This document shows positions 20,332-22,164 of a stretch of 64,000 nt of DNA, one piece after another. Location: positions 1,312,001 to 1,376,000 of the forward strand of contig OZ242311.1 of the NCBI GenBank assembly GCA_965207885.1, given 5' to 3'. Within the stretch, counting starts at the first letter, position 1; each line of letters starts with the position of its first letter. The DNA comes from Candidatus Latescibacterota bacterium (GTDB lineage: Bacteria; Latescibacterota; UBA2968). A program made the position numbers and the translations under genes. The notes beneath the pieces were generated by a model that was not told where the DNA came from, made no database searches, and saw only the letters and a list, made by a program, of their open reading frames with translations.

Positions 20332-22164
20332 TCAATCCGCAAACGCCCCATTGCCAATGGCAAAGATATTATTTGGATCCATCGCCTTTTTCATCTGCCG
20401 CAGCACTGCAATGCTATTTTCGCTTTGAATCTGCGGCAAAAAGCCACTGCGGAGCTTGCCCACGCCGTGATGGTGCGACAAAGACCCGCCGTGGTCTAAA
20501 ATCTCCTGCCGCAGCCGGCGCTCAATCGCGTGATAAACGCCAACCGAATCCTCAAGCCCCTGCGCGCAAAAACCCATAGTAAAATAAATACACACACCCG
20601 TGTGATAGGTCTGCGTCACGCGATAGGCCAAAAAGGGCTTGCCCGGCACGCCGTATTCTTCACACAAAACAACCAACTTCTTTTCCACCGCACCAATAAC
20701 ATCGTGAATATTAGTCCACGGCACAGAAGTCTCAAATGTCTCGCCCAAAATGTGAAACTGAGTAAAAAAATCGCGAATATACGCAATCCCAAACGTCAAC
20801 ATATACCCCCGCTCGCCCCTGTGCGCTCCGCCCGAAATACCACCGTATTTCTTCGCCAAACGAAAAATCGTCTTTGCCTGCTGCCGGACCTCGTCTTTTG
20901 TGCCTTCCATCACAATCGTACACGCCACCAACTGCTCTGGATCAAATCCCTTGACCTTAACCAAAAAAAATTGCTGAATATCCTGCTGGAGCTTCTTGAA
21001 TCCTTTTACCTCGGGCTTCAGCGCCTGCCCAAGCTGTAATTCCGTATTGTTCACCAGCCGAATACTCGCCGGAACTTGCCCTGTCTGCCGAAGTGCCTTT
21101 AAGTAAGCCACACCCCGTTCAAATGACGGAAACACCAGCGAGCCAAACTCCTGTGCTTCGGGCTGTTTATGGATCTTTATCGTCGCCCGGGTAATAATCC
21201 CCAAATTGCCCTCGCTACCAAACAAAAACGACCTGGGCTGCACACCTGTCGAATTGCGCGGCGTCGCATGGTGTGTCTTCACCTCCCCCGTCGGCGTCAC
21301 CAGCGTGGCCTCTATCACAATATCCTCAATATTGCCATACCGGTTCTTTTTCATACCACTGGCATTGGTCGCAATCCATCCCCCCAGAGTTGAAAACTCC
21401 AGACTATCGGGATCGTGTCCCGATGTGTATCCCAACTCATTCAGCGCAATCTCCAATTGCTTACCCGAAATACCCGCCTGCACACACGCTTGAAAATTCT
21501 CTTCATCCACCTGCACAATGCGATTCATGCGACGCATATCCACCGACGCGACCATCCGCGTCTCCGAAGTCGGAATTGCGAGCGCACCGCTCACATTCGT
21601 CCCACCACCATAGGGCACCAGCGCCACATTGTGGTCATTTGCAAGCTGGATAATAGCCTGAATATCCGCTTCTTCCTCTGGAAACAACACCACATCCACC
21701 AGACGTTCGGGCGGTCGATGGTACAAAATTTGATACACCTCATCCACGCTCAACTGCCCATGACTATGCACCAGACGCTCTATGTCCTCCTGAGAAACCC
21801 CATCTTCATTGAGCGCATCGCGCACCGCCCTCAAAAATTCATCATTTGCCACGGGCGCGGGCAAATCGCGGTGCTCGACCTCTTGCCCCATATCTTCGGG
21901 ACGGACCGGCACATTGAGCACCCCTTCGACAAAAGGCAAAAAATACGGCATCCGATAGCCACATAACGGATACCGCGTTCCCGTCACATGCACGGTCCTG
22001 TCATCGTCAAACTCAAACCGCGTATCCTTATACCCCCACTTGTGTGCAAACCGCTCGCCTTCTGCCCCCTCAGAAAAACGGTCTTTACTGGCAAAAGCGC
22101 GACGCCCTCGAACGAACAAAAATATCAACACCAGTAAAAAAGCGACAACCATCAGTTCATTCAT
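20332..22164 (-). CDS. Alkyl-dihydroxyacetonephosphate synthase (AGPS/ADHAPS), FAD-linked
   Basis: [75 protein letters not shown]. N-terminal TM helix and RBS GAGGTG. Confidence 0.9.
   Translation of the reverse strand: [610 protein letters not shown]

What the first reader, a model, noticed from the sequence alone, without database searches (positions are those of the whole stretch)
20332..22164. AGPS is strikingly eukaryote-like and carries an N-terminal membrane anchor
Seen: motifs [87 protein letters not shown] and [10 protein letters not shown], plus a hydrophobic N-terminus ([22 protein letters not shown]). From memory these track the metazoan AGPS sequence closely. Inference: either inter-domain gene transfer or a bacterial sister lineage of eukaryotic AGPS, with a TM anchor where eukaryotes have a peroxisomal targeting peptide.
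Basis: partly seen in the sequence, partly recalled or inferred. Interest (0 to 1): 0.7.

Follow-up and report, generated by a model that had tools for sequence, protein, structure and literature searches.

The report
Membrane-anchored bacterial ether-lipid synthase (AGPS) operon
This gene encodes a genuine, animal-type alkylglycerone-phosphate synthase (the enzyme that makes the ether bond of ether lipids) in a Latescibacterota bacterium, tethered to the membrane by an N-terminal helix and sitting in a four-gene ether-lipid operon; it is a sound but largely expected member of a bacterial family already noted in print.

Summary
ORF 20332..22164(-) encodes a 610-aa protein that matches guinea-pig AGPS end to end (E 2.9e-153, 515 bits; next non-AGPS hit 90 bits). 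Its AF2 model superposes on 4bby at TM 0.92-0.94. The catalytic Tyr, two Arg and the HHH loop are all kept. An N-terminal hydrophobic helix (residues 2-24 in the model) with positive charges behind it is present in 112 of 117 complete near homologues. None of 120 carries a PTS2, whereas 54 of 117 hits of the eukaryote-profile search (mostly animal records) do.

The gene is third in a conserved operon: FAR, a cryptic GPAT/PlsC-fold acyltransferase (an unannotated family), AGPS, then an SDR. This is the full DHAP route to 1-O-alkyl-glycerol-3-phosphate. No PEDS1 match was found.

AGPS is class-wide in Latescibacterota (124 of 168 genomes) and looks vertically inherited. A sister relation to Metazoa is rejected (p-AU 3e-73). 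The protein lies in a well-supported clade holding all the named bacterial sequences plus a dinoflagellate-type fusion group. The direction of the ancient inter-domain transfer stays unresolved.

AGPS homologues in Latescibacterota are already published. The anchor, the split operon and the cryptic acyltransferase were not found in the texts I searched.

The parts
20332..22164 (-). AGPS (alkylglycerone-phosphate synthase) coding sequence, 610 aa from ATG 22164. An in-frame TTG at 22176 would add 4 residues.
   Evidence: ORF. Pfam FAD_binding_4 at 1.7e-39 and FAD-oxidase_C at 3.9e-38. PDB 4bby at E 2.9e-153. AF2 model pLDDT 87.3, TM 0.92-0.94 to mammalian AGPS chains.
22171..22174 (-). GAGG Shine-Dalgarno-like tetramer 6 nt upstream of ATG 22164
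   Evidence: Read from the sequence. Function is inferred.
22093..22164 (-). Codons for residues 1-24: N-terminal hydrophobic helix. The uncharged core is residues 4-18 ([15 protein letters not shown]), flanked by MNE before and RGRR after. Read as a signal-anchor with the N-terminus out and the catalytic domain in.
   Evidence: KD19 maximum 2.25. AF2 helix 2-24 followed by a low-confidence linker 21-34. A hydrophobic segment is present in 112 of 117 complete near homologues. Charge after the segment exceeds charge before it in 94 of 104. Topology is inferred from the positive-inside rule.
21277..21696 (-). FAD_binding_4 (PCMH/VAO-type FAD-binding) domain, residues about 157-296
   Evidence: Pfam PF01565, residues 161-300 of the 614-aa form.
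20359..21162 (-). FAD-linked oxidase C-terminal (cap) domain, residues about 335-602. It holds R369 (21058-21060), R464 (20773-20775), Y527 (20584-20586) and H564-H566 (20467-20475).
   Evidence: Pfam PF02913. Residues align with guinea-pig R419, R515, Y578 and H615-617 in the alignment. They also align with the R/R/Y of the Dictyostelium-type representative P0236. They are invariant in 26 of 26 aligned bacterial and eukaryotic AGPS. PDB titles name the Tyr578Phe and Arg419His mutants.
22180..24120 (-). 646-aa acyltransferase of an unannotated family, the proposed DHAP acyltransferase (GNPAT-like function). It has a helical N-terminal part of about 410 residues and a C-terminal GPAT/PlsC-fold domain with H447-x4-D452.
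   Evidence: No Pfam hit reaches threshold: PF01553 scores only E 0.054 over residues 438-579. All 120 listed homologues lack precomputed Pfam domains. Of the named ones all are 'hypothetical protein' except one (P0363), named 1-acyl-sn-glycerol-3-phosphate acyltransferase. Motifs are conserved in 28 sequences. AF2 pLDDT is 80.8. Foldseek top hits are PlsC 5kym (E 6.3e-5, TMt 0.62-0.66), plant and algal GPATs and human GPAT1. DHAP as the acceptor is inferred from context.
24130..25755 (-). Fatty acyl-CoA reductase (FAR), alcohol-forming type, 541 aa from the TTG
   Evidence: Pfam NAD_binding_4 at 2.9e-65 and Sterile at 1.3e-15. PDB 7eoz 'Fatty acyl-CoA reductase' at E 3.8e-89.
19485..20363 (-). 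Short-chain dehydrogenase/reductase, proposed acyl/alkyl-DHAP reductase. The start codon is uncertain: the TTG at 20363 overlaps the AGPS 3' end, and later ATGs exist.
   Evidence: Pfam adh_short at 3.2e-47. NCBIfam PRK06181 at 1.9e-90. Follows AGPS on the same strand (directly or after a 0.4-1.5 kb gap) in 15 of 15 related loci. The specific substrate is inferred from position only.

Best explanation
The ORF encodes a functional alkylglycerone-phosphate synthase (EC 2.5.1.26) of the animal type. A single N-terminal helix holds it at the cytoplasmic membrane, with the FAD-containing catalytic body in the cytoplasm. It is the third gene of a co-oriented, tightly packed operon that encodes the whole DHAP route to ether lipids. 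(1) The 646-aa GPAT/PlsC-fold acyltransferase acylates DHAP to 1-acyl-DHAP. (2) FAR reduces an acyl thioester to a fatty alcohol. (3) AGPS forms a covalent DHAP-flavin N5 adduct after proton abstraction by Tyr527, releases the fatty acid and adds the alcohol, giving 1-O-alkyl-DHAP. (4) The SDR reduces the keto group to give 1-O-alkyl-sn-glycerol-3-phosphate, which enters ordinary phospholipid synthesis. With no PEDS1/CarF match in the genome, the products would be alkyl (plasmanyl or monoalkyl glycerol ether) lipids, not plasmalogens. Shown here: family membership, fold, catalytic residues, the hydrophobic N-terminus and its conservation, operon conservation, and class-wide distribution. Inferred: enzyme activity, the substrate of the acyltransferase and of the SDR, membrane topology and the lipid products. 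The operon is old and vertically inherited within one class of Latescibacterota. It is not a recent gift from an animal host.
For: Family and fold. Guinea-pig AGPS scores 514.9 bits against 89.8 for the best non-AGPS FAD oxidase. The AF2 model (pLDDT 87.3) superposes on 4bby/5ae1/6gou chains at TMt 0.92-0.94, rmsd about 2 A, 40-42% identity over about 568 columns. Catalytic residues. R369, R464, Y527 and H564-566 align with guinea-pig R419, R515, Y578 and H615-617. They also align with the Arg/Arg/Tyr that mutagenesis showed to matter in Dictyostelium ADPS (R352, R447, Y508; passages of PMC3509576 read; mapping through P0236). They are invariant in 26 of 26 sequences. Anchor. Searches (112 of 117; 94 of 104 positive-inside; helix 2-24). 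Among the six proteins scanned (the four operon products plus the neighbouring GH3 and DAGK), only AGPS has such a charge-free terminal segment; FAR's interior window at 351 scores slightly higher (2.36) but holds two Asp. Operon. Gaps are 9 nt and 15 nt, and AGPS and the SDR overlap. The order FAR-AT-AGPS-SDR is kept in 14 of 15 related loci, and AGPS-SDR in the 15th. Partners. FAR is supported, the acyltransferase fold and HX4D motif. Co-distribution by family: AGPS in f1 28/30, f2 22/22, f3 1/3, f4 71/76 and 1/35 in f5-f14; the acyltransferase in f1 30/30, f2 22/22, f3 3/3, f4 74/76 and 2/35 in f5-f14. PEDS1. PF10520 has no match in the 6.23-Mb single-contig genome, 97% complete. RNA libraries. 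Contigs of four metatranscriptome runs from two studies lie on FAR, AT, AGPS and SDR, some pieces without a single difference.
Against: No activity, lipid or topology data exist for this organism. The uncharged core of the anchor is only 15 residues, short for a bilayer span. Five of 117 near homologues lack the segment, and so do several deeper relatives (P0124, P0128, P0137, P0153), so the enzyme does not need it. The acyltransferase has no significant sequence match to any named family. Its catalytic domain lies C-terminal, unlike my recollection of metazoan GNPAT, so 'GNPAT-like' is a functional guess from position. The SDR is generic. The PF10520 search rang in none of the 14 control genomes, so that negative is unvalidated. 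The RNA-library contigs do not prove transcription: the tool itself warns that DNA can be present, and I laid no silent control stretch. In family f4 the acyltransferase and AGPS genes lie megabases apart, so linkage is not universal.
Confidence: 0.85

Rival explanations
1. Ancient eukaryote-to-bacterium transfer. The bacterial animal-type AGPS (Latescibacterota, Poribacteria, Marinisomatota, Gammaproteobacteria and others) descends from an early eukaryotic gene, whose PTS2 presequence was replaced by a membrane anchor.
For: The tree was rooted on the Dictyostelium-type clade. On that root the named eukaryotes (a fungus, an oomycete, alveolates, Heterolobosea plus animals) branch first and are paraphyletic. 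All named bacteria sit inside one derived clade with support 100/99 (LG+G4 careful, 47 rows) and 99 (PMSF C20 quick, 30 rows). Forcing the 11 named eukaryotes together costs 29.9 lnL units, p-AU 0.049.
Against: The result depends wholly on a distant outgroup root, and the first-branching row is a long fungal branch (1.09 to 1.74). The AU p-value is borderline, and the group was defined after the tree had been seen. Many rows are unlabelled metagenome proteins. Myxobacterial, trypanosomatid and ciliate sequences could not be named or included. The outgroup clade itself mixes bacteria and eukaryotes. PMC13012113 infers bacteria-to-eukaryote transfer for the partner enzymes and calls AGPS uninformative.
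Confidence: 0.2
2. Ancient bacterium-to-eukaryote transfer. A bacterial AGPS of this clade or a relative is the source of eukaryotic animal-type AGPS, as proposed for PEDS1 and FARAT from Myxococcota.
For: PMC13012113 (abstract and sections 11 and 12 read) argues for en-bloc transfer of the pathway from myxobacteria. Monophyly of the named eukaryotes is only marginally disfavoured (p-AU 0.049). Bacterial diversity of the family is very large (17993 representative clusters at E<=0.001). The gene order FAR then AT matches the domain order of FARAT fusions (passage).
Against: In none of my three trees is the eukaryotic set a clade. A dinoflagellate-type group lies inside the bacterial clade and the other eukaryotes lie outside it. 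No myxobacterial sequence could be identified in my sample, so that donor was not tested.
Confidence: 0.4
3. Recent horizontal acquisition from an animal (for example a sponge host), explaining the metazoan look of the sequence.
For: Near-identical DNA is held by runs labelled sponge metagenome in several studies. Animals are the best-scoring named eukaryotes.
Against: Holding the 6-row Latescibacterota/Poribacteria clade together with 5 animals costs 232.7 lnL units, p-AU 3.3e-73. Identity to animals is only 42-45%. The gene occurs in 124 of 168 genomes of the phylum, with identity falling smoothly from 97% to 59%. GC content is like that of the flanks. The gene has no PTS2. No sponge AGPS was in the test.
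Confidence: 0.02
4. The N-terminal segment is a cleavable secretion signal and the enzyme works outside the cytoplasm.
For: Close relatives show small-x-small triplets just after the segment (AFA, AHA, ARA).
Against: There is no positive n-region. The segment is preceded by acidic residues and followed by Arg/Lys in 94 of 104 cases, which is the reverse of a Sec or Tat signal. The A-x-A pattern is lost in more distant members such as the Poribacteria sequences. FAD loading and the acyl-DHAP and acyl-thioester substrates are cytoplasmic (established biochemistry; inference).
Confidence: 0.06
5. It is a generic FAD-linked oxidase (D-lactate dehydrogenase or glycolate oxidase type) rather than an ether-bond synthase.
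For: NCBIfam offers only GlcD-type models, all far below their cut-offs (170.9 against 567.9 bits). Sources name the relatives 'FAD-binding oxidoreductase'.
Against: AGPS chains score 515 and 301 bits against at most 90 for lactate and glycolate enzymes. Structural TM is 0.93 against 0.80-0.84. The AGPS-only N-terminal domain (query 42-150) aligns. The catalytic Tyr, Arg and HHH residues are kept. The operon context fits AGPS.
Confidence: 0.02

Closest known systems
Mammalian peroxisomal AGPS (guinea-pig structures 4bby, 4bca, 4bc7, 5ae1, 6gou)
   Same: The match runs over the full length of the catalytic body (query 42-602 on chain 95-653), at 40-42% identity and TM 0.92-0.94. It has the same FAD domain, cap domain and N-terminal AGPS-specific domain. 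The counterparts of R419, R515, Y578 and H615-617 are all kept.
   Different: There is no PTS2 presequence; a hydrophobic N-terminal helix stands in its place. The gene is bacterial and sits in an operon. It is not a close relative of animal genes on the tree.
Dictyostelium discoideum ADPS (2uuu/2uuv), the other solved AGPS
   Same: Same reaction chemistry is expected, and the same Arg/Arg/Tyr triad is present. Fold TM is 0.87-0.89.
   Different: It is much more distant: 300.6 bits and 27-28% identity. It belongs to a separate deep clade, split at 100/100, that also holds many short proteins of about 550-600 aa beginning with a WWGWG-like motif. None of those was labelled by organism. The Dictyostelium-type representative scores only 331 bits against guinea-pig AGPS, which is less than this bacterial protein does.
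Myxococcus xanthus Agps (MXAN_1676) with the FAR-GNPAT fusion MXAN_1675
   Same: It is a bacterial AGPS gene next to FAR and acyltransferase functions. Its deletion is reported to block ether-lipid formation by that route (figure legend and passages of PMC13012113).
   Different: Here FAR and the acyltransferase are two separate genes, an SDR follows AGPS, and no PEDS1/CarF match was found. I held no M. xanthus sequence, so identity, AGPS type and the presence of an anchor there were not tested.
agps homologues already reported in Latescibacterota MAGs
   Same: PMC11868695 reports Agps BLAST homologues in 67 of 92 Latescibacterota MAGs (passages). The preprint 10.64898/2026.06.23.733905 reports agps hits in Latescibacterota MAGs of sponges (passages). 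My scan gives 124 of 168 genomes.
   Different: Those texts treat the hits as standalone homologues of the M. xanthus protein. In the preprint the words GNPAT, 'fatty acyl-CoA reductase' and 'transmembrane' occur 0 times. I did not search the Black Sea paper for these words. The supplements of both were not seen.

Membership tests
AGPS / ADPS (EC 2.5.1.26) | PCMH/VAO-type FAD-binding domain plus FAD-linked oxidase C-terminal domain | tested here: met
   PF01565 at 1.7e-39 and PF02913 at 3.9e-38, both far above their cut-offs.
AGPS / ADPS (EC 2.5.1.26) | Colinear full-length match, including the AGPS-specific N-terminal domain, that scores far above other FAD oxidases | tested here: met
   4bby scores 514.9 bits over query 42-602, 2uuu 300.6 bits, and the best non-AGPS chain 89.8 bits. 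TMt is 0.92-0.94 against 0.80-0.84 for D-lactate dehydrogenases.
AGPS / ADPS (EC 2.5.1.26) | Catalytic tyrosine (guinea-pig Y578, Dictyostelium Y508) | tested here: met
   Y527 in CIYF aligns with Y578 and with the Tyr of P0236. It is invariant in 26 of 26 sequences. Its role is taken from PMC3509576 and the PDB title 'Tyr578Phe mutant'.
AGPS / ADPS (EC 2.5.1.26) | Active-site arginines (Dictyostelium R352 and R447; guinea-pig R419 and R515) | tested here: met
   R369 (PASIRL) and R464 (AYIRDF) align with them and are invariant in 26 of 26. The mapping of Dictyostelium numbers assumes a +5 offset in P0236, which fits all three residues.
AGPS / ADPS (EC 2.5.1.26) | HHH loop (guinea-pig H615-617) | tested here: met
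   H564-H566 in SHHHGVGK are invariant in 26 of 26. That this loop is catalytically relevant is my recollection and comes from no call.
AGPS / ADPS (EC 2.5.1.26) | Exchange of the acyl group of acyl-DHAP for a fatty alcohol, FAD-dependent and without net redox change | not testable with these tools
   Needs an enzyme assay.
Eukaryotic peroxisomal form of AGPS | N-terminal PTS2 nonapeptide | tested here: not met
   The consensus regex hits 0 of 120 near homologues and 0 of 25 bacterial-like representatives, against 54 of 117 hits of the search, which are mostly animal. The query has the hydrophobic helix instead.
GPAT/AGPAT/GNPAT glycerolipid acyltransferases (neighbour gene 22180..24120) | HX4D catalytic motif and the further conserved blocks | tested here: met
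   H447 and Q448 are invariant. The fifth residue after His is D or E. R482, G493, Y545/T549 (YPxGTT) and P576/R580/G581 are conserved in 28 sequences. Naming these as blocks I-IV is my recollection.
GPAT/AGPAT/GNPAT glycerolipid acyltransferases (neighbour gene 22180..24120) | Significant match to the Pfam Acyltransferase model PF01553 | tested here: inconclusive
   E 0.054 and 13.7 bits against a cut-off of 23, although profile positions 13-131 of 132 are covered. A profile of 28 members found no PDB sequence. The Atlas feature search points to PF01553 clusters at 0.91.
GPAT/AGPAT/GNPAT glycerolipid acyltransferases (neighbour gene 22180..24120) | Acyltransferase fold | tested here: met
   Foldseek gives PlsC 5kym at E 6.3e-5, prob 1.00, TMt 0.62-0.66. 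Squash GPAT 1iuq/1k30 and algal GPAT 8ia1 have prob 1.00, and human GPAT1 8e4y prob 0.97. The model has pLDDT 80.8.
GNPAT (DHAP acyltransferase) specifically | DHAP as the acyl acceptor; orthology to eukaryotic GNPAT or the FARAT AT domain | not tested
   No GNPAT or FARAT sequence was in hand. The assignment rests on the position between FAR and AGPS and on co-distribution.
Alcohol-forming fatty acyl-CoA reductase (FAR) | NAD_binding_4 Rossmann domain plus C-terminal Sterile (FAR_C) domain | tested here: met
   PF07993 at 2.9e-65 and PF03015 at 1.3e-15. PDB 7eoz 'Fatty acyl-CoA reductase' at 3.8e-89.
Acyl/alkyl-DHAP reductase (DHRS7B/PexRAP-like function) | SDR that reduces 1-alkyl-DHAP | not tested
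   Only generic SDR membership is shown. The function is inferred from the conserved position after AGPS.

The most novel reading that the evidence does not exclude
Animal-type AGPS moved from an early eukaryote into bacteria, not the other way. On outgroup-rooted trees the bacterial, membrane-anchored enzymes of Latescibacterota, Poribacteria, Marinisomatota and Gammaproteobacteria form a derived clade nested among paraphyletic eukaryotic lineages. If real, the PTS2 presequence was swapped for a membrane anchor, and the gene was then wired into an operon with a bacterial FAR, a home-grown cryptic acyltransferase and an SDR. That direction is opposite to the one published for PEDS1 and FARAT, and it would make the aerobic ether-lipid pathway a two-way mosaic between the domains.
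Probability: 0.2. Interest if true: 0.6.

Novelty: new variant of a known kind. Interest (0 to 1): 0.4.

Why it matters
Ether lipids are a hallmark of animal membranes. The origin of their aerobic pathway was recently ascribed to myxobacteria for three of the four enzymes, with AGPS left open (PMC13012113).

This locus shows that a candidate phylum common in sponges and sediments carries a complete, separately encoded DHAP-route gene set. Its AGPS is nearer to the mammalian enzyme than the Dictyostelium enzyme is. It gives a concrete four-gene cassette that can be expressed to test bacterial alkyl-lipid synthesis. It offers a candidate source of the monoalkyl glycerol ethers found in sponges. 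It also points to an unannotated acyltransferase family that may be the missing bacterial DHAP acyltransferase.

It does not overturn anything. The presence of agps homologues in this phylum is already in print.

Tried and rejected
(1) A careful tree of 73 rows under the PMSF mixture model did not finish in two calls. I went to 47 rows under LG+G4 and 30 rows under PMSF quick.

(2) FAR-AT fusion in genus g31. Open frames of 1042-1098 aa around the acyltransferase match looked like a FARAT. The region fetched from G164 has a 927-aa ORF with no Pfam domain at all and no FAR nearby. The long frame is most likely a high-GC artefact, so I dropped the lead.

(3) Sequence searches for the acyltransferase gave nothing usable: NCBIfam, single sequence against PDB and profile against PDB. 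Only the fold search worked.

(4) My first PTS2 regular expression had a spacing error and found nothing.

(5) Labelling of representatives. Of 30 proteins looked up, a taxon came from the protein's own name in 8 and from a cluster member's name in 1 (P0171), so many tree rows remain of unknown domain. The third homologue search, with a eukaryote profile, returned mostly animals.

(7) PF10520 (PEDS1) found nothing in the genome, but it also rang in none of the 14 controls, so absence is not proven.

(9) RNA-library contigs cover the operon. They are contigs, and I laid no silent control stretch, so I do not claim transcription levels or operon-length transcripts. The parts of AGPS without cover in X15 and X16 mean nothing.

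(10) Supplements of PMC13012113 (Datasets S2-S5, S9), of PMC11868695 (Tables S8, S14) and of the preprint were not read. They may list these very genes.
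Full report
OBSERVATION. One search lists a single long ORF at 20332..22176 on the minus strand, 614 aa from a TTG. A GAGG lies 6 nt upstream of it, and the stop of the upstream gene lies only 15 nt away. I take this ATG as the start. GC content around the gene (0.52) matches that of the flanks.

WHAT THE PROTEIN IS. Pfam finds FAD_binding_4 (1.7e-39) and FAD-oxidase_C (3.9e-38).
- Against all PDB sequences the best hit is guinea-pig alkyldihydroxyacetonephosphate synthase 4bby: E 2.9e-153, 514.9 bits, in one stretch (query 42-602 on chain 95-653).
- Dictyostelium AGPS 2uuu follows at 300.6 bits. The best non-AGPS flavoenzyme, a glycolate oxidase, scores 89.8 bits.
- An AF2 model built on a 26-sequence alignment (A3) has mean pLDDT 87.3 and pTM 0.84.
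- Foldseek places this model on 29 mammalian AGPS chains at TMt 0.92-0.94, rmsd about 2-3.5 A and 40-42% identity over about 568 columns. The Dictyostelium chains score 0.87-0.89 (27-28% identity) and D-lactate dehydrogenases 0.80-0.84.

Catalytic residues.
- In the alignment, query R369 (PASIRL), R464 (AYIRDF), Y527 (CIYF) and H564-566 (SHHHGVGK) face guinea-pig R419, R515, Y578 and H615-617.
- PDB titles name 4bca as the Tyr578Phe mutant and 4bc7 as the Arg419His mutant.
- The review PMC3509576 (passages read) states that R352, Y508 and R447 of the Dictyostelium enzyme matter for catalysis. It names Tyr508 as the proposed base that starts formation of the covalent DHAP-flavin N5 adduct.
- Through the Dictyostelium-type representative P0236 (1091.9 bits to 2uuu; numbering offset +5) these three residues map to the same query residues.
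- All are invariant in the 26 aligned bacterial and eukaryotic sequences.
- NCBIfam has no AGPS model. It offers only GlcD-type models far below their cut-offs, which explains the public name 'FAD-binding oxidoreductase'.

THE N-TERMINUS.
- The strongest hydropathy window of the protein is at residue 1 (KD19 2.25). Nothing elsewhere exceeds 1.0.
- The uncharged core is residues 4-18. It is preceded by MNE and followed by RGRR.
- AF2 draws a helix over residues 2-24, then a low-confidence linker over 21-34, then the body of the enzyme.
- Of the 120 nearest homologues, 117 start with M and carry the H/K-x-WGY motif. Of these, 112 have a window of KD19 at least 1.6 before the motif and 5 do not.
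- In 104 of 121 rows an uncharged run of 14-22 residues (median 17) is found. In 94 of those 104 the net charge after the run exceeds the charge before it (means +1.65 and -0.75).
- By the positive-inside rule this is a reverse signal-anchor, with the N-terminus outside and the enzyme in the cytoplasm. That reading is an inference.
- The sequence of the segment is not conserved; only its character is.
- Deeper in the tree the feature is patchy. P0121, P0130, P0144, P0188, P0135, P0152 and P0161 have it. P0124 (Marinisomatota), P0128, P0137, P0153, P0125 and P0127 do not.
- The strict PTS2 consensus is found in 0 of 120 near homologues and 0 of 25 bacterial-like representatives. It is found in 54 of 117 hits of the eukaryote-profile search. 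Degenerate versions can be seen by eye in Pharyngomonas, Lagenidium, Vitrella, Acaulospora and Nematostella.
- Among the six proteins scanned (the four operon products plus the neighbouring GH3 and DAGK), only AGPS has a charge-free hydrophobic segment of this kind, at its N-terminus. FAR's interior window at residue 351 scores slightly higher (2.36) but contains two Asp.

SURROUNDINGS: A FOUR-GENE OPERON. On the same strand and tightly packed lie four genes.
- 24130..25755 is a fatty acyl-CoA reductase: NAD_binding_4 at 2.9e-65, Sterile at 1.3e-15, and PDB 7eoz 'Fatty acyl-CoA reductase' at 3.8e-89.
- 22180..24120 encodes a 646-aa protein, described below.
- AGPS follows.
- 19485..20363 is an SDR: adh_short at 3.2e-47 and PRK06181 at 1.9e-90.

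The 646-aa protein.
- It has no Pfam family at threshold. PF01553 Acyltransferase reaches only E 0.054, although it covers profile positions 13-131 of 132 over residues 438-579.
- It finds nothing in NCBIfam or among PDB sequences, whether as a single sequence or as a 28-member profile.
- Its 120 listed relatives (184 with E<=0.001) all lack precomputed Pfam domains. Of the named ones all are called 'hypothetical protein' except one (P0363), called 1-acyl-sn-glycerol-3-phosphate acyltransferase. Labels include Latescibacteria, Gemmatimonadetes and Handelsmanbacteria.
- The alignment shows an invariant H447-Q448 within FLPTHQSLxD/E and further conserved blocks: R482, G493, YPxGTT at 545-549, and P576/R580/G581.
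- An AF2 model (pLDDT 80.8, pTM 0.85) has a long helical N-terminal part and an alpha/beta C-terminal domain.
- Foldseek's two significant hits are Thermotoga PlsC 5kym (E 6.3e-5 and 4.9e-4, TMt 0.62-0.66). Next come squash GPAT 1iuq/1k30, algal GPAT 8ia1 and human GPAT1 8e4y, at probability 0.97-1.00.
- The ESM Atlas feature search also points to PF01553 clusters at 0.91.
- It is therefore a glycerolipid acyltransferase of a family no library names. That it acylates DHAP is inferred from its place between FAR and AGPS.

CONSERVATION.
- In 15 loci from named genome records (13 at 93-96% AGPS identity, one at 81%, one at 66%), the order FAR-AT-AGPS-SDR holds in 14. The 66% locus keeps AGPS-SDR only.
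- Across 168 genomes of the phylum, AGPS (E<=1e-100) is in 124: family f1 28/30, f2 22/22, f3 1/3, f4 71/76, and 1/35 in f5-f14. Among genomes at least 90% complete and at most 5% contaminated it is in 33 of 52. Identity falls smoothly from 97% to 59%.
- The acyltransferase (E<=1e-30) is in 132 of the 168 genomes with the same family pattern: f1 30/30, f2 22/22, f3 3/3, f4 74/76, and 2/35 in f5-f14.
- In f1 and f2 the two genes abut, for example in G061. In f4 they lie far apart, for example in G132 at 1.59 and 3.11 Mb.
- This is what long vertical inheritance within one class looks like. It does not look like a recent import.
- PF10520 (PEDS1/CarF) finds nothing in the 6.23-Mb, single-contig, 97%-complete genome. 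The same search rang in none of the 14 controls, so the negative is unvalidated.

MECHANISM (mostly inferred). The acyltransferase makes 1-acyl-DHAP and FAR makes the fatty alcohol. AGPS is held at the inner face of the membrane, where both lipid substrates partition. It swaps the acyl group for the alcohol through the flavin adduct (chemistry from PMC3509576). The SDR then reduces alkyl-DHAP to 1-O-alkyl-glycerol-3-phosphate. Without PEDS1 the end products would be alkyl lipids, not alkenyl lipids.

WHERE IT SITS AMONG AGPS.
- HMMER against 1.84 billion cluster representatives gave 17993 hits at E<=0.001 and 1023 at E<=1e-30.
- Of the best 150, 101 covered most of the query. I dropped 5 rows with internal holes (P0216, P0201, P0221, P0247, P0266) before a FastTree of 97 rows.
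- Two deep clades appear. One holds the Dictyostelium enzyme (P0236) together with many proteins of about 550-600 aa, none of which was labelled by organism. P0222 of that clade scores 465 bits to 2uuu and 286 to 4bby. The other is the animal type.
- The query belongs to the animal type. It scores higher against guinea-pig AGPS (515 bits) than the Dictyostelium-type representative does (331 bits).
- Labels came from three look-ups and one profile search: Pharyngomonas, Lagenidium, Acaulospora, Vitrella, Eimeria, a Symbiodinium-containing cluster, Gammaproteobacteria, Marinisomatota, Poribacteria, Latescibacteria and many animals. Twenty-one of the 30 proteins looked up yielded no taxon.
- A careful IQ-TREE (47 rows, 588 columns, LG+G4) gives these supports:
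  - the two types, 100/100;
  - Pharyngomonas plus animals, 100/96;
  - the alveolates, 99/98;
  - a 29-row clade holding every named bacterium plus the dinoflagellate-type giant fusions, 100/99;
  - within it a 15-row clade with the query, 98/97;
  - a 6-row Latescibacterota/Poribacteria/P0121 clade, 100/99.
- A PMSF C20 quick tree of 30 rows shows the same picture.
- Rooted on the Dictyostelium type, the named eukaryotes are basal and paraphyletic and the bacteria are derived.

Tests of the tree.
- Holding 11 named eukaryotes together against 12 named bacteria and outgroup rows costs 29.9 lnL units, p-AU 0.049. This is borderline, and the group was named after the tree had been seen.
- Holding the 6-row query clade together with 5 animals costs 232.7 lnL units, p-AU 3.3e-73.
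- So the protein is not a close relative of metazoan AGPS. The direction of the old inter-domain transfer is open.

LITERATURE.
- PMC13012113 (abstract, sections 11 and 12, and passages) derives eukaryotic PEDS1, and probably FAR and GNPAT, from Myxococcota. It describes M. xanthus MXAN_1676 (AGPS) next to MXAN_1675, a FAR-GNPAT fusion. It states that separate FAR and GNPAT are nearly exclusive to Holozoa. 'Latescibacter' and 'transmembrane' occur 0 times in its main text.
- PMC11868695 (passages) reports Agps BLAST homologues in 67 of 92 Latescibacterota MAGs.
- The preprint 10.64898/2026.06.23.733905 (outline and passages) reports agps and elbD hits in Latescibacterota MAGs of sponges. It does not contain the words GNPAT, 'fatty acyl-CoA reductase' or 'transmembrane'.
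- My searches turned up no text on a membrane-anchored bacterial AGPS or on this split operon. The library lacks most subscription papers, including the original M. xanthus study, and I read no supplements.

OCCURRENCE AND RNA. I leave out the four runs that hold 0.98-0.99 of the words, because they may be the source sample. Ten further runs from six studies hold 0.68-0.81 of the operon's sampled words. Their labels are sponge metagenome (5 runs), marine metagenome (3), one coded organism and one unlabelled. Contigs of four metatranscriptome libraries from two studies lie on the operon.
- In X15 and X16, 8 and 7 of 13 pieces are at least 99% alike. Examples are 550 nt without a difference on FAR and 245 nt without a difference on the acyltransferase. 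A 397-nt piece on AGPS has 14 differences.
- In X17 and X18, a strain about 93% alike gives 3.6-kb contigs across the acyltransferase and FAR genes, plus pieces over AGPS and the SDR.
- The tool warns that DNA can sit in RNA libraries, and I had no call left for a control stretch. This is a weak hint of expression at best.

VERDICT. The interesting additions are these:
- the conserved membrane anchor in place of PTS2;
- the separately encoded FAR and a cryptic acyltransferase family;
- the SDR that completes the pathway;
- the fact that bacterial and eukaryotic sequences interleave in both deep AGPS types.
None of this is very surprising after the 2025-2026 papers, so interest is moderate.

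Noticed in passing
window 17123..18247 (-): A 374-aa DDE transposase (PF01609, 4.6e-16) sits between the GH3 glycosidase gene (18433..19647) and the diacylglycerol-kinase-like gene (16182..17114). In most of the related loci those two genes lie only about 60-400 bp apart, so this is an insertion specific to this genome.
   Followed up: partly
L004 8830..9683 (and the same place in other loci): In 9 of 15 related loci the SDR match starts more than 350 nt after the AGPS stop. In L004 the gap holds two overlapping small ORFs (187 aa and 97 aa) that the window lacks. It looks like a two-gene cassette, possibly toxin-antitoxin-like, but was not analysed.
   Followed up: no
proteins P0142, P0147, P0148, P0154, P0157, P0159, P0160, P0167, P0168, P0172, P0181, P0183: These are giant proteins of 2100-2700 aa with the AGPS domain at the extreme C-terminus. 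A related clade (P0171 cluster) contains a 2605-aa Symbiodinium natans protein named ads-1. They may be whole-pathway fusions in marine protists. Several N-termini look like acyl-CoA-binding domains by eye only.
   Followed up: no
P0123 (810 aa, Gammaproteobacteria MAG) and P0037 (1060 aa): Other bacterial fusion forms exist. One has an N-terminal extension of about 240 aa before AGPS, which looks like a PlsC-type acyltransferase by eye and was not scanned. Another is an AGPS fused to aminotransferase domains (PF00155, PF01212, PF01053 precomputed).
   Followed up: no
genomes G094, G038, G151: Some Latescibacterota genomes carry a second or an only AGPS copy at just 45-47% identity to the query (for example G094:C428, G038:C96, G151:C4). 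More than one AGPS subtype therefore circulates in the phylum.
   Followed up: no
window 25952..29050 (+): Divergent from the ether-lipid operon lies a run of genes that read, by eye from the translations only, as nucleoside-diphosphate kinase, a YceD-like protein, ribosomal protein L32, FabH and FabD. The operon thus appears to abut the fatty-acid synthesis cluster. This was not checked with any family search.
   Followed up: no
window 13542..14459 (-): A 305-aa protein whose translation looks like ankyrin repeats by eye. Such eukaryote-like repeat proteins are often discussed for sponge symbionts (my recollection). It was not tested.
   Followed up: no
L018 (G164:C1:3769000-3776500): Around the acyltransferase gene of a high-GC relative, many overlapping ORFs of 350-1000 aa occur on both strands. 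The 927-aa frame has no Pfam domain. This is a reminder that the open-frame lengths reported by genome scans overstate gene length in such genomes.
   Followed up: yes
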